Source of the DNA: the human T2T-CHM13v2.0 reference genome, Homo sapiens
DNA length: 64,000 nucleotides
Direction: 5' to 3' (one strand)
NCBI RefSeq assembly: GCF_009914755.1
Contig: NC_060940.1
This document shows positions 50,901-64,000 of this stretch, in pieces. The notes beneath the pieces were generated by a model. The model saw only the letters and a program-made list of their open reading frames with translations, did not search any database and was not told where the DNA came from. How positions within the stretch are numbered: the first letter of the stretch is position 1; every line of letters starts with the position of its first letter. The position numbers and the translations under genes were made by a program.

Positions 50901-52266
50901 ACCTGGCCCTCCTGATGCTGTCCCTGTTCCACTAGCCTGTCCCTAGCTCCTCTCCAATCTCTGTCCTGCAGGTTTAGGTTATGGGAATGGTGTCCTGGGA
51001 GCCAGGGTCTTCCCCGAGGCCCACCCACAGCCAGGTGCCTGGGGAGCAGGGGTCGGGGTGGGAGAGTTGGGCTCAGGGCCCCAGCCCAGCCTCTGACACC
51101 CTCTTTCCTCCTCCAGGGTTCCATGGGGCCAATGGTTTTAGGAATAGTGAGTCAGACCCAGGGGACAAAGTGCAGTGGAGTGGGGGAGACAACAGCCCAG
51201 GGGCTAGGCGGGAATGACCAGAGTCTCTTGGAGGGGATGGGGTGGAAGCTCTGGTGTACCCCAAAGCAGCAGCTCCAGCCCCTGAAGGAAATGGTAAGAA
51301 ATGAGCCTTCTGGGAGCAGAGCCAAGCCCAACAGGGGCCAGGGGTCCCAGCTCCTGTGGGCAAGGGTACCCCTGCCAGCTCTCCTCCCCACAGGGCAGGC
51401 CGGGGTGCTGTGGAACTCTCGCTGGCCCACCCTCCAGGCCTGGGGGGCCGGCTTGAAGCCTGGATATCAGGCTGGAGATGAATATGCTGAGGCCAGGAGC
51501 CAGCCAGGTAACGGGATGCCTGGATGAGTGTGTTGGGGCCATTAGAGGTGGCTTCAGGGAACTGGGCCCTGGGCCCAGGTCTACCCACAGCCCCACAGAG
51601 ATAGAAGGTACAGCCCTCTTGGCGGAGGGGATGGAGTGAGTGAGAAGAGGCCAGGAGGGCATAGGCAGGAAGGAGCAGGAAGGAATGGAGCTGGAGGAGA
51701 GGCCAGAAGAGCCCGGGACCCTGAGAGCCAGCCCAGACACTGGACCAAGAAGGGGAGGTGATGGAGTTGGGAACGAGGGCCATCACGGACTCAGTTCTCC
51801 ACACTCTGTCCCTCTCCCCCCGGTCCTCTGAGAAACTGAGGCAGAGCTGAGCCCTGGGCCCTCCGGGGAGGGGGTGTCTCCCACAGCCTGGGTTGAAGCT
51901 GGGGTGGACGGAAGCTCTCTGGTGACCCGAGTGCTCCTGGTCTGTCTGTCTGTGCCATAGGGGGCCCCGACGTGAAGAGAGGCAGCAATGGCCAGCTGGG
52001 GAATGGCTACGGAGGTGAGAGGGAGGCGCAATGGCCAAGCCGCCTGCCCAAAGGCCCCCCGTGGTCACCCCTCCAGCCATACTGGGGGACACCCAGCCCT
52101 TGGGAAGGATAGCAGGTTCTGCCACCTGTAGGTGGCTGCTGAGTGACTGACCCCAGAAGCTCAGGTCCCTGGGAGGGGAGGAGGGGGCAAGGCCTCACCA
52201 GGGCCCCGCCCCTCCCTAGCCCAGCTCTATGTCTTCCCAGGCCGCTGCCCTCTGGGGAAATGCTGA
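38959..52266 (+). CDS. GREP1: Glycine-rich extracellular protein 1 (secreted, tropoelastin-like micro-exon gene; formerly LINC00514); maximal model 42 exons, 616 aa
   Basis: Exons: 38959-39025, 39272-39304, 40084-40113, 40205-40234, 40656-40688, 40769-40804, 41137-41169, 41234-41269, 41730-41783, 41922-41954, 42060-42119, 42560-42571, 43085-43120, 43487-43516, 43613-43645, 43943-43975 (GC donor), 45380-45409, 45488-45520, 45609-45644, 45965-45997, 46083-46118, 46300-46335, 46420-46452, 46538-46591, 47177-47212, 47354-47386, 47626-47766, 48070-48099, 48484-48516, 48900-48935, 49037-49069 (GC donor), 49175-49204, 49529-49660, 49937-49981, 50582-50623, 50766-50798, 50972-51034, 51117-51146, 51234-51293, 51394-51507, 51961-52014, 52241-52266. 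All internal exons are multiples of 3 and phase 1-1; total 1851 nt, no internal stop. [22 protein letters not shown]...GGRCPLGKC*. Real transcripts may use only a subset. Confidence 0.88.
44043..45208 (+). mobile_element. Three Alus in a GREP1 intron (44043-44352, 44359-44665, 44907-45208)
   Basis: Alu consensus with A-rich or (AAAC)n tails. Confidence 0.9.
46621..46912 (-). mobile_element. Alu in a GREP1 intron
   Basis: Antisense Alu; gagcccaggctt flanks both ends as a target-site duplication. Confidence 0.92.
50160..50428 (-). mobile_element. Alu in a GREP1 intron
   Basis: Poly-T plus antisense Alu; ctcttgct flanks both ends. Confidence 0.9.
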
Positions 52267-52670
52267 GCACTGCAATGCCCCTCGCCTGCCCAGCAAGGAA
52301 GACAGACCCTTGGGCTTGGCCTCTGGTGCTGCCTGGCCGGGGGTCTCCTCCATGCTAGAACCACAAACGTGCTTCCCTGCTTGCCTCCGCGTGCCATGCA
52401 AGGGGCTTGCTGACCAGGGTGGGAGTGGCATGGGCCTGCAGCCACCACCCAGCACCTCATTCATTCATTTGGCAAACATCAATGAGGCCATGTGCCAGGG
52501 ACCATGTTCCCAACAGGAGAAATCATGAGAAGAAAACAGACTCGATCAACGCCTGCCCTCAGGGAGGGCATCACTTGGTGACCGCCTAGCGGGGGAACCA
52601 CATCCAAGTTAGGGGCCTTGTGCATGGAAAAGAACACTTCATTCTTTGTGTTTTCATTTATAATCGATTT

Positions 52671-52676
52671 ATTAAA
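52671..52676 (+). terminator. Probable GREP1 poly(A) signal ATTAAA
   Basis: Variant hexamer about 400 nt after the stop, followed by T-rich sequence. Confidence 0.5.
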
Positions 52677-62275: not shown

Positions 62276-63934
62276 CGTCACACCCCTTTTTCAGACAACA
62301 ATCCTCAGAGGTTCTTAGCACCCAGGCAGGGGCTTGAAGGAGTTCATGAACCCTCCCCCACAAATGAGGGGCACATGTTTGTGGGTGCATGTTCTGTGAG
62401 TCCCACGGGGTTTCTCAAGTGGGTCTTTGACCAAAGGACGTTAAGGACCTCGACCTTCCATGACCTGTCCCAGGTAGGGGTCAGGATTTGAGCTTTGGCC
62501 AGTGGGACTCCCAGGCTGTCCCCATGAGTGGAATCACAGGCTCTGAGGGGGTTTTTCCGGAGGTAAGGCTTTCCTGCAAACTGGAAGGCAGGTCTTGGGG
62601 ACACTTGAGTCCCTGGACTTAACCCCCGTGCCCACCTCTGGGGTGTTTTGGCCCGGGAGGCCTGACTGGCCACTCACTCACCCACCCATGGAACATAACC
62701 GGGTCCTGGGCTGTGCCCCACCCTGGGTTCCAGCCCCAGCCCGTCCCGCCTCCATCCCCCTTCCTGAGTGCCCCCCAACCTCCACAACAGGCCCCTCATC
62801 CTCTGGCCTCTGGAGATCTTAGGCAGCTCAGCTCAGCCTCGGTTTCAGCAGCAGGGGTGGCAAGAGCGCACCTGAGCTGAGGTTGAAGTGGGGGGTAGTT
62901 TTCTAGGCCGTTGCCAGGGCGATGCCACCTGAGCTGGGCGCCAGGCACCTGTCGTCTGGGGAACAGTGCAGGCGGGGACCTTCCCCCGGGAGCTAGCGGG
63001 GCCACTGGGCTGAGACGGGGGATGGATCAGATTCCAGAGAGTCCCAGGCGGGCGGGAGTGTGCGATACTCGGGGAGCTGGGGCATGTTTGCATCACGAAA
63101 CTCGGCTGGGGGAGAGCAGAGGCGGCTGGGGAGGGGCTGCGGAAGGAGGAGGCTCAGGAAGGCAAGCCGACGCCCCCTGTGTGTGTTTCTGTCCTGAGCC
63201 TGTTACTTTTTTGACCCCCGATCCGTCTCTTCTTCCTCAGCTTGTCCTCCATCTTCCCCTCCTTTACCCTTGGTTCCCACATGCACAGATGCTACGGACG
63301 CTTTTCCTCCCCTGTCCCCACTCAGCCGCAGCATCCCCCGCTGGCCCCCAGGCCCCTCATCCATCCGCTGCCCACGAACCCCCAGCCCCGCACCCTCCCC
63401 GTGGCTCAGGTCTCCCCTATCCCGGCCTCCCTGCACTTCACTCTGCTCCTCCCCTGCCTGGGCCTTAAAACCCCGCCTGCAGCCGAGAGCCCGCAGAGTC
63501 CCCAGGTGGCACTGTCAGAGTCGCTCAGTGGGAACCTGCGCCAGCCGGCAGGAGACGTGGCTGTCCTCAGCCTGGCAGTGCGTCTGGAGGGCCTGTGCGA
63601 GCTCAGCCCAGGTGTGACAGCGGGGTGGTAAGAGCAGCAGCACCCTCAGGGCATCCGATGGGCGGAGGCCCCTCGAGGTGACACCCACCACTCAGCCGAG
63701 CGGGACTACGAGTCTGCTTTGTGCTCCGCGAGGACCAGAAACACCTGCAAGAGGCACGGAGAGGAGGCGCCTTTCAAGAGGCGCCTTTCATGGAACTGAG
63801 GACTGGCCTGGCTTGGGGACACCAACAAGCCTTCCCCCTCCTGCTGGACACAGAGACACCCACCCAGCACACCAGACACACCCTCTGAGTCACCTAGGCC
63901 GCCTGGGGCTGAGAAGACCTAACCGAGGGGCCAG

Positions 63935-64000
63935 ATGGCTTCGACCGGCTTAGAACTGCTGGGCATGACCCTGGCTGTGCTGGGCTGGCTGGGGACCCTG
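63935..64000 (+). CDS. CLDN9: Claudin-9, N-terminus (runs off the window end)
   Basis: MASTGLELLGMTLAVLGWLGTL is the claudin-9 N-terminus and first TM helix; ATG in cagATGG context. Confidence 0.93.
   Translation, partial: MASTGLELLGMTLAVLGWLGTL

What the first reader, a model, noticed from the sequence alone, without database searches (positions are those of the whole stretch)
52241..64000. GREP1-CLDN9 linkage mirrors ELN-CLDN3/CLDN4 linkage (possible paralogon)
Seen: CLDN9 begins about 11.7 kb downstream of the elastin-like gene. Established: CLDN9 pairs with CLDN6 at 16p13.3, and ELN lies close to the related CLDN3/CLDN4 pair at 7q11.23. Inference: GREP1 and ELN are duplicates from a segmental or whole-genome duplication. 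This is independent of low-complexity sequence similarity.
Basis: partly seen in the sequence, partly recalled or inferred. Interest (0 to 1): 0.8.

Follow-up and report, generated by a model that had tools for sequence, protein, structure and literature searches.

The report
GREP1 as possible elastin duplicate
The little-studied secreted protein gene GREP1 sits beside claudin genes in a chromosome block that is an ancient duplicate of the block holding the elastin gene, so it may be elastin's long-lost sister gene, though their sequences are too different to prove it.

Summary
In detail: the CLDN9 start codon (63935) lies 11,694 bases after the start of GREP1's last coding exon (52241). The spacer itself is ordinary: repeats plus one unassigned CpG island.

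The block paralogy is supported in the human genome. The claudins on chr7 and chr16 are each other's closest relatives. Only three cwf21-domain loci exist, and two of them flank ELN and GREP1. The best paralog of KREMEN2 lies 2.1 Mb from the only paralog of LIMK1, the gene next to ELN. However, the two claudin pairs arose separately after the blocks split, so the "pair mirrors pair" likeness is partly coincidence.

The "mammal-only" refuter fails: two squamate proteins are clear GREP1 orthologs.

GREP1 and ELN share an architecture:
- a signal exon followed by short phase 1-1 exons
- exons 3-5 of 30, 33 and 36 nt in both
- a 33-nt KPxKP exon at position 4 in both
- a final short exon with Cys-x4-Cys

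No test found sequence similarity beyond composition (HMMER, tblastn, shuffles).

Verdict: the paralogon is real (about 0.85). GREP1 as ELN's ohnolog is about even odds and was not found in print.

The parts
38944..52691 (+). GREP1 gene: a signal-peptide exon, 27 internal coding exons all in phase 1-1 (22 of them 30-36 nt), and a short last coding exon
   Evidence: The hub annotation spliced gives an open 1245-nt frame. Acceptors are AG at 28 of 28 internal sites. Donors are GT at 27 of 28 and GC at one (exon ending 49069). Per-exon peptides are and exon repeat families D1-D7.
40656..40688 (+). GREP1 exon 4: 33 nt, phase 1-1, peptide ending GGVKPQKP; the first of the Lys-bearing 'KPxKP' exons
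   Evidence: ELN's exon at the same ordinal position (C7:75240846-75240878) is also 33 nt, phase 1-1, and ends GGKPLKP.
52241..52266 (+). GREP1 last coding exon: G-R-C-P-L-G-K-C then stop (two Cys with four residues between)
   Evidence: The C-x4-C ending is kept in 13 of the 23 placental proteins printed, in both squamates and in many unnamed relatives. ELN's last exon reads GGACLGKACGRKRK.
52692..63494 (.). Intergenic spacer between GREP1 and CLDN9: interspersed repeats, no Rfam match, and one CpG island
   Evidence: plus the hub's repeat-mask list.
54500..55750 (.). Unassigned CpG island inside the spacer (GC 72-83%, CpG observed/expected 0.87-1.03)
   Evidence: The only long frames are GC-rich Gly/Ser/Ala/Arg runs. 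No gene is listed here in the hub table.
63495..64000 (+). CLDN9 5' UTR and first 22 codons (ATG at 63935)
   Evidence: Pfam PF00822 matches at C16:3039947-3040474.
14954..19059 (+). KREMEN2, a second marker of the paralogous block within the window
   Evidence: The exon at 17591-17920 has its best non-self match at C22:29600875 (E 3.2e-18, 43% identity). That is 2.1 Mb from the only genome match of a LIMK1 kinase exon (C22:31736508).

Best explanation
The 11.7-kb stretch is ordinary intergenic DNA; what matters is the neighbourhood. KREMEN2-PAQR4-PKMYT1-GREP1-CLDN9-CLDN6 on 16p13.3 and CLDN3-CLDN4-ELN-LIMK1 on 7q11.23 are surviving pieces of one ancestral block. The early vertebrate whole-genome duplications copied that block. 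A third copy lies on 22q (a claudin, a KREMEN gene, a LIMK gene).

Shown here: the block paralogy in human, and that GREP1 is at least as old as amniotes.

Inferred: the ancestral block held one claudin next to one secreted gene made of short phase-1 exons rich in Gly and Pro and carrying Lys. After the duplication the chr7 copy became elastin. The chr16 copy became GREP1. Its sequence drifted beyond recognition: Val/Ala-rich hydrophobic exons gave way to Gly-Tyr-Asn-Gln-rich ones, and a three- to four-exon module was amplified in mammals. It kept the exon phase, the first exon sizes, the Lys-Pro exons and the terminal Cys-x4-Cys exon. Each block then duplicated its claudin in tandem on its own.

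By analogy, and not tested, GREP1 would be a matrix protein cross-linked through its Lys motifs by lysyl oxidase and associated with microfibrils.
For: Block paralogy:
- The four best of 45 claudin-family matches in the genome are the chr7 pair and the chr16 pair. Cross-locus identity is 59-65%, above every other single-exon claudin compared. The five claudins of chr7, chr16 and chr22 form one clade, with support 63/89.
- PF08312 (cwf21) hits only 3 places in the genome. Two are C16:2776754, 238 kb from GREP1, and C7:77522704, 2.25 Mb from ELN. A passage of PMC12626424 speaks of an amphioxus 'Srrm234 pro-ortholog', meaning one gene before the duplications.
- KREMEN2's best paralog is at C22:29600875. 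A LIMK1 kinase exon has one other match in the genome, at C22:31736508.
- BCL7-family loci lie at C7:74757986, C12:122017907 and C16:31281310.

Age of GREP1:
- Squamate proteins P0160 and P0163 share the GREP1 signal peptide (...LLLLCL.RGSLQGG) and C-terminus (LGNGYR.RCPSGKC).
- A rodent gene model fuses the GREP1 C-part to a claudin domain, which shows linkage in that species (P0135).

Shared architecture:
- All 27 internal GREP1 coding exons are phase 1-1. The ELN exons are read in the same phase.
- Exons 3, 4 and 5 are 30, 33 and 36 nt in both genes.
- A genome-wide pattern for a 33-nt phase-1 exon ending KPxKP gave 22 hits (13 for the reversed control). Six are in GREP1, one is ELN's exon 4, and 15 are scattered singles.
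- Both genes end in a short phase-1 exon with C-x4-C containing G-K.
- Squamate and unnamed relatives carry Ala-rich stretches ending K-Y-G. Five ELN exons end AAKY before a Gly.

Function:
- GREP1 is secreted and pulls down fibronectin and EMILIN2 (bioRxiv 10.1101/2020.03.10.981001, passages).
- Mouse Grep1 is expressed specifically in the inner annulus fibrosus (PMC13082079, passages).
Against: No sequence similarity between GREP1 and ELN beyond composition was found:
- A profile of the two squamate GREP1 proteins, searched against 1.84 billion representatives, gave 19 hits at E <= 0.001. All 19 are GREP1-type and none elastin-type.
- tblastn of 11 GREP1-family proteins against the 60-kb ELN locus gave nothing at genome scale. 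At pairwise scale the scores were no better than against control DNA: best relevant E 0.28 against 0.04-0.1 in controls with composition correction, and 39-45 bits against 44-53 bits without it.
- Smith-Waterman against shuffles gave N-terminal z from -1.2 to 1.9 for the 10 of 11 proteins in which the signal motif was found. The best was human, p 0.054. C-terminal z was 0.6, p 0.28.

Other points against:
- Composition differs strongly.
- GREP1 lacks ELN's basic RKRK tail.
- Gene order, orientation and distance to the claudins differ (11 kb against 206 kb).
- The exon sizes 30, 33 and 36 nt are the common GREP1 sizes, so the exon 3-5 match could be chance, roughly 1 in 27.
- A uniform exon phase counts as one observation (about 1 in 3), because each gene grew by duplicating its own exons.
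- The human-only claudin tree is weakly supported and cannot date anything.
- BCL7C lies 28 Mb from GREP1.
- Two further checks gave no information (BicD Pfam; a BICDL2 exon).
Confidence: 0.5

Rival explanations
1. The blocks are true paralogs, but GREP1 is not a copy of ELN. It arose on its own in the chr16-type block before the amniote ancestor, by amplifying a few Gly-rich exons. It resembles elastin only because matrix proteins built this way converge on Gly/Pro-rich phase-1 exons with Lys motifs.
For: Every sequence test was negative. Composition is unlike ELN's. The GREP1 exon array is plainly a product of internal module duplication, so its uniform phase and exon sizes need no inheritance from ELN. 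Automatic names for GREP1 orthologs range over elastin-like, collagen-like, fibroin-like and spidroin-like, as expected of generic low-complexity likeness.
Against: It treats as coincidence that the only two genes seen here with this architecture sit in paralogous blocks beside sister claudins. By my own rough estimate, under random placement a window of 200 kb around three paralogous claudin sites covers about 0.04% of the genome. It also leaves unexplained the same-position 33-nt KPxKP exon and the terminal C-x4-C exon.
Confidence: 0.4
2. The resemblance of the two neighbourhoods is chance. The claudins are related only as members of a large family spread by small-scale duplication, and there is no common block.
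For: The claudin tree from human sequences has no strongly supported inner branch among the five genes (supports 54-75 / 76-89). Order and orientation differ between the loci.
Against: Independent families agree: cwf21 with 2 of only 3 genome hits beside the two loci, KREMEN and LIMK converging on a 2.1-Mb stretch of chr22, and BCL7 on chr7, chr12 and chr16.
Confidence: 0.07
3. GREP1 is a young, mammal-only gene, for example a former non-coding RNA locus that became coding, so the linkage is recent.
For: The gene was formerly catalogued as LINC00514 (one database name; co-occurrence). All 120 hits listed of 141 in the full-length search were placental mammals.
Against: Two named squamate orthologs have matching signal peptide and C-terminus. 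Further divergent relatives exist whose species are not given.
Confidence: 0.03

Closest known systems
ELN (tropoelastin) gene, 7q11.23
   Same: Both encode a secreted protein: a signal-peptide exon, then many short exons all in phase 1-1 with a Gly codon split at most junctions. In both, exons 3-5 are 30, 33 and 36 nt and exon 4 is a 33-nt exon ending GG.KP.KP. Lys sits in K-P-x-K (and, in sauropsid GREP1, Ala-rich ...K-Y-G) contexts. The last exon is short and holds two Cys four residues apart around G-K. Each lies beside sister claudins.
   Different: No detectable sequence similarity. GREP1 has few Val/Ala and no VPGVG-type runs. It is rich in Gln, Asn and Tyr, has no RKRK tail, and its median exon is 33 nt against 54 nt. 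No evidence here of desmosine cross-links or elastic recoil.
Vertebrate whole-genome-duplication paralogons (ohnolog blocks), here 7q11.23 / 16p / 22q with 12q24
   Same: Several unrelated families have one member in each block (claudins, cwf21/SRRM, KREMEN, LIMK, BCL7). Gene order is scrambled, as usual for such blocks.
   Different: Only the human genome was examined. That these regions form a recognised paralogon is my recollection and was not seen in a paper here. The duplication was not dated.
Teleost elna/elnb (elastin duplicates from the fish-specific genome duplication; recalled, no paper read here)
   Same: A precedent for an elastin gene being kept in two copies after a genome duplication, with one copy diverging in sequence and use.
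   Different: Those copies remain plainly alignable as elastins. GREP1 does not.
Collagens (the comparison made by the GREP1 discoverers)
   Same: Gly/Pro-rich secreted matrix-type proteins made of many short exons.
   Different: GREP1 has no Gly-X-Y periodicity; the longest run is 3 triplets. Its 33-nt exons encode 11 residues, and its exons are phase 1 rather than the phase 0 that I recall for fibrillar collagens.

Membership tests
Elastin (tropoelastin) gene family | Signal-peptide exon followed by many short exons, all in phase 1-1 | tested here: met
   GREP1: 27 of 27 internal coding exons are phase 1-1 and exon 1 ends in phase 1. ELN exons were recovered by a scan that assumed this phase.
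Elastin (tropoelastin) gene family | Alternation of hydrophobic Val/Gly/Pro domains with Lys cross-linking domains of KP and KA type | tested here: inconclusive
   Human GREP1 alternates Lys-bearing KPxKP exons with Lys-free Gly-rich exons. Squamate and unnamed relatives have Ala-rich ...K-Y-G stretches. The Lys-free exons are Gly/Asn/Tyr/Gln-rich, with V at 4% against 13% in ELN, and there are no VPGVG-type runs.
Elastin (tropoelastin) gene family | Last exon encoding two Cys that form a small loop | tested here: met
   GREP1 ends C-P-L-G-K-C, and this ending recurs across amniotes. ELN ends ...C-L-G-K-A-C-G-R-K-R-K. Against shuffles of the same 16 residues the match is not significant (p 0.28).
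Elastin (tropoelastin) gene family | Basic RKRK tail after the Cys loop | tested here: not met
   GREP1 stops right after the second Cys in human, the placentals printed, the squamates and the unnamed relatives.
Elastin (tropoelastin) gene family | Significant sequence similarity to known tropoelastins | tested here: not met
   0 of 19 profile hits are elastin-type. tblastn does no better than controls. Shuffle tests give z <= 1.9.
Elastin (tropoelastin) gene family | Lysyl-oxidase cross-linking (desmosine), coacervation, elastic recoil | not testable with these tools
   Needs biochemistry.
Ohnolog pair inside a vertebrate paralogon (GREP1 with ELN) | Both genes lie in blocks that share other paralogous families | tested here: met
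   Claudins, cwf21 genes, KREMEN/LIMK triangulation through chr22, BCL7.
Ohnolog pair inside a vertebrate paralogon (GREP1 with ELN) | The two genes are homologous, shown by a gene tree or alignment | tested here: not met
   No alignment above composition was found. Only architecture and short motifs are shared.
Ohnolog pair inside a vertebrate paralogon (GREP1 with ELN) | Both copies present, in conserved linkage, across jawed vertebrates, with one copy in outgroups | not testable with these tools
   No non-human vertebrate genome was available. Partial evidence: GREP1 orthologs in two squamates, and a rodent model fusing GREP1 to a claudin (P0135).
Collagen | Long uninterrupted Gly-X-Y repeats | tested here: not met
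   The longest Gly-X-Y run in GREP1 is 3 triplets.

The most novel reading that the evidence does not exclude
GREP1 is the surviving whole-genome-duplication sister of elastin. Mammals would then have a second elastin-family gene, hidden until now because it was filed as a non-coding RNA and has drifted past sequence recognition. Suppose the split was the second, jawed-vertebrate-only duplication. Then elastin's ancestor arose between the two duplications. That would explain why there are exactly two copies, none on the chr22/chr12 block, and none reported in lampreys. GREP1 would then be a matrix protein cross-linked by lysyl oxidase and associated with microfibrils in tissues such as the annulus fibrosus.
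Probability: 0.45. Interest if true: 0.75.

Novelty: new member of a known kind. Interest (0 to 1): 0.55.

Why it matters
As I recall it, elastin is treated as a gene without paralogs in mammals, and its origin in jawed vertebrates is unexplained. A sister gene would give a second data point for reconstructing the ancestral elastic-fibre protein.

It would also turn GREP1 into a gene with concrete, testable predictions. So far GREP1 is known only as a secreted breast-cancer dependency factor that binds fibronectin and EMILIN2 and as a marker of the inner annulus fibrosus. The predictions are cross-linking through its Lys-Pro motifs, binding to microfibrils and self-assembly.

If the rival is right instead, GREP1 is a clean case of convergent evolution of an elastin-like gene architecture, which is useful for understanding how such proteins are built.

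The block paralogy itself is ordinary.

Tried and rejected
Tools and papers that were not available:
I therefore could not see the ohnolog tables of Singh 2015, Nakatani 2021 or Simakov 2020. Those tables would say directly whether the CLDN3/4-CLDN6/9 and SRRM2-SRRM3 pairs are listed and whether ELN has any ohnolog.
- Loh 2004 (Fugu claudins) is not held under the DOI or the PMC id I tried.

Literature searches, 10 of 10 used:
- No paper holds claudin + elastin + paralogon.
- No paper holds claudin + elastin + synteny + whole genome duplication.
- Elastin + ohnolog gave only teleost or incidental papers in the listing.
- Two claudin-evolution searches gave nothing usable.
- GREP1/LINC00514 + elastin gave 5 papers, none linking the human gene to elastin.

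Searches that led nowhere:
- A 37-aa exon was too short for the protein search.
- A 43-aa exon found only mammals.
- The ESM Atlas gave only automatically named 'Elastin-like' and glycine-rich chordate clusters, probably GREP1's own.
- The BicD Pfam model found only two other loci and a broken copy, none on chr16.
- One BICDL2 exon matched only itself.

Other negative or limited results:
- Searches used wrongly picked claudin frames. They were redone.
- Rfam found nothing in the spacer.
- The frames in the CpG island look like GC-rich noise.
- The collagen comparison was rejected.
- The species of the 19 unnamed representatives could not be determined, so the depth of the family beyond amniotes stays open.
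Full report
**Observation**

The window is G000:C16:2976001-3040000. The CLDN9 frame opens at ATG 63935 and runs off the window. The annotated GREP1 coding parts splice into an open 1245-nt frame of 414 residues, with the last coding exon at 52241-52266. The quoted 11.7 kb is 63935 minus 52241 = 11,694 bases. From transcript end to transcript start it is 10,804 bases.

The spacer is unremarkable. It has interspersed repeats (and the hub mask list) and no Rfam family. It holds one strong CpG island at about 54500-55750 (GC 72-83%, observed/expected CpG 0.87-1.03), to which the hub table assigns no gene. Its long frames look like GC-rich noise.

**What GREP1 looks like**

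- All 27 internal coding exons are phase 1-1 and exon 1 ends in phase 1. Twenty-two of the 27 are 30-36 nt.
- The peptides alternate between Lys-bearing 33-nt exons of the form G..G..KPQKP and Lys-free Gly/Asn/Tyr/Gln-rich 30- or 36-nt exons.
- Repeat analysis shows these are old copies (60-86% identity) of a three- to four-exon module. The likeness reaches a few bases into the introns. Several extra, unannotated copies exist.
- The last exon encodes G-R-C-P-L-G-K-C and a stop.

**The ELN side**

Gene names for loci outside the window are my assignments from sequence content and my memory of the human map. I had no annotation for them.

- Pfam claudin matches lie at C7:74970387(-) and C7:75032106(+).
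- A scan for phase-1 exons in C7:75220001-75280000 recovers the elastin exons from 75238503 onward. The chain contains a few wrong or missing exons. I judged these from memory of the protein, not from an annotation.
- ELN therefore starts about 206 kb after the second chr7 claudin.
- Its last exon reads GGACLGKACGRKRK.
- A kinase exon of the next gene (LIMK1 by recall) is at C7:75318958.

**Is there a paralogous block?**

In favour:
1. The four best of 45 claudin-family matches in the genome are the chr7 and chr16 pairs. Identity is 70% and 72% within the pairs and 59-65% between them. It is 50-56% to the chr22 claudin and 42-50% to three chr21 claudins.
2. The cwf21 domain has only three matches in the genome. 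Two are 238 kb from GREP1 and 2.25 Mb from ELN. A passage in PMC12626424 refers to an amphioxus 'Srrm234 pro-ortholog', meaning one gene before the duplications.
3. KREMEN2 in the window has its best paralog at C22:29600875. The LIMK1 exon has a single other match, at C22:31736508, 2.1 Mb away. The chr22 claudin is at 19.9 Mb.
4. BCL7 genes lie on chr7 (480 kb from ELN), chr12 and chr16. The chr16 copy is 28 Mb from GREP1.

Two more checks gave no information.

I take the block paralogy as real, at about 0.85. I believe it is known to the ohnolog literature.

**The claudin pairs**

The maximum-likelihood tree groups CLDN3 with CLDN4 (support 67/88) and CLDN6 with CLDN9 (75/86). A cross-pair grouping is rejected (p-AU 0.0015). 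The chr22 claudin joins the chr16 pair weakly (54/76). A clade of the four paired genes is not rejected (p 0.18).

The pairs are also built differently: divergent and 61 kb apart on chr7, convergent and 1.6 kb apart on chr16. So each block most likely inherited one claudin and duplicated it later, unless gene conversion has homogenised the pairs. The 'pair mirrors pair' part of the finding is thus a coincidence laid over a real paralogy. Which two blocks are closest sisters is not resolved.

**Age of GREP1**

- A full-length search found 141 relatives. The 120 listed are all placental mammals.
- A profile of the conserved C-terminal 45 residues found 117 proteins, all listed. Two are squamates, Lerista edwardsae (E 0.026) and Liasis olivaceus (E 8.9, named GREP1 by its source), and the rest of the named rows are placental mammals.
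- Both squamate proteins have the GREP1 signal peptide and the ending LGNGYR.RCPSGKC. The weak E-values reflect the short profile, not doubtful kinship.
- A profile of these two, searched against 1.84 billion representatives, found 19 proteins. All 19 are GREP1-type. Some are very divergent, but no species names are given.
- A wood-rat gene model fuses the GREP1 C-part to a claudin domain (P0135), which shows linkage in that species.

The gene is therefore at least amniote-old, and the 'mammal-only' refuter fails for the gene. Linkage outside mammals could not be tested.

**Are GREP1 and ELN homologous?**

For:
- Same exon phase throughout.
- Exons 3, 4 and 5 are 30, 33 and 36 nt in both.
- Exon 4 in both is a 33-nt exon ending GG.KP.KP. 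A genome-wide pattern for such an exon gave 22 hits (13 for the reversed control). Six are in GREP1, one is that ELN exon, and 15 are scattered singles that I did not inspect.
- Both end in a short exon with C-x4-C around G-K. That ending recurs in GREP1 across amniotes.
- Sauropsid-type GREP1 proteins carry Ala-rich stretches ending K-Y-G. Five ELN exons end AAKY before Gly.

Against:
- None of the 19 profile hits is an elastin.
- tblastn of 11 family members against the ELN locus gives nothing at genome scale. At pairwise scale it gives nothing better than control DNA.
- Shuffle tests of the N-terminal 50 residues give z from -1.2 to 1.9 for the 10 of 11 proteins in which the signal motif was found. 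The best p is 0.054, for human, where the N-terminal ELN window ranks 1 of 68. It ranks 8 to 53 of 68 for the others.
- The C-terminal 16 residues give p 0.28.
- Composition differs, and the RKRK tail is absent.
- Uniform phase and the common exon sizes carry little independent weight, because each gene grew by duplicating its own exons.

**Weighing**

The sequence evidence is null, which is expected for low-complexity genes after roughly 450 million years and decides nothing. The positional evidence is the real argument. By my own rough estimate, a gene of this rare architecture placed at random has about a 0.04% chance of landing within 200 kb of one of three paralogous claudin sites. That figure must be discounted for the many comparisons a reader could have made (for example, collagen-like genes against any neighbour family). 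I put ohnology at about even odds (0.45-0.5). I put 'paralogous blocks but unrelated genes' at about 0.4.

**Timing**

A passage of PMC3306419 states that elastin is absent from agnathans. The abstract of PMC8302630 states that the first duplication is shared with cyclostomes and the second is specific to jawed vertebrates.

If the chr7 and chr16 blocks are sisters from the second duplication, an elastin ancestor born between the two duplications would give exactly two copies. If instead chr16 and chr22 are sisters, as the weak tree hints, the ancestor would predate cyclostomes, and lampreys should have or have lost a relative. This cannot be settled here.

**Function (inference)**

GREP1 is secreted, cleaved and disordered, and it co-purifies with fibronectin and EMILIN2 (bioRxiv 10.1101/2020.03.10.981001, passages; that text never mentions elastin). 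Mouse Grep1 marks the inner annulus fibrosus (PMC13082079, passages). Together with the K-P-x-K motifs, this fits a cross-linked, microfibril-associated matrix protein. Nothing here tests that.

**Novelty**

No held paper links human GREP1 or LINC00514 with elastin. Database pipelines have labelled some orthologs 'elastin-like', and one ferret fragment 'Elastin'. They have equally used 'collagen-like' or 'fibroin-like', so those labels show low-complexity likeness only.

Noticed in passing
window 54500-55750: A strong CpG island (GC up to 83%, CpG observed/expected about 1.0) lies in the GREP1-CLDN9 spacer, and the hub table lists no gene there. It could be an unannotated promoter. The 384-aa minus-strand frame across it looks like GC-rich noise.
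   Followed up: partly
window 49069/49070: The GREP1 exon ending at 49069 uses a GC donor instead of GT. It is the only non-GT donor among the 28 coding-exon donors.
   Followed up: no
window 41120-41188, 42651-42719, 43919-43983 and others: Extra copies of the KPQKP-type and other exon modules lie within GREP1 introns and are not in the selected transcript. Some are exons of other transcripts (for example the one ending 41954, which encodes ...VKPPKP). Others look decayed, for example with lost splice sites.
   Followed up: partly
P0135 (Neotoma lepida record): A database gene model fuses the GREP1 C-terminal part to a complete claudin domain. This is a read-through mis-prediction, but it incidentally documents GREP1-claudin adjacency in a rodent.
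   Followed up: no
P0124 and several rows: A ferret GREP1 fragment is named 'Elastin' in UniProt, and several NCBI models of GREP1 orthologs are named 'elastin-like'. Others are named collagen-, fibroin-, spidroin- or cell-wall-protein-like. The automatic naming is inconsistent across species.
   Followed up: no
G000:C14:86830345-86830381 (+): One of the 15 scattered pattern hits would encode ..VGTGFKPQKP between AG and GT, very like a GREP1 exon. It is probably chance, and I did not look at its surroundings.
   Followed up: no
P0160, residues about 86-127: The skink protein has a 42-residue Ser/Leu/Pro-rich insert that the python protein lacks. It looks like a retained intron or a mis-predicted exon in that model.
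   Followed up: no
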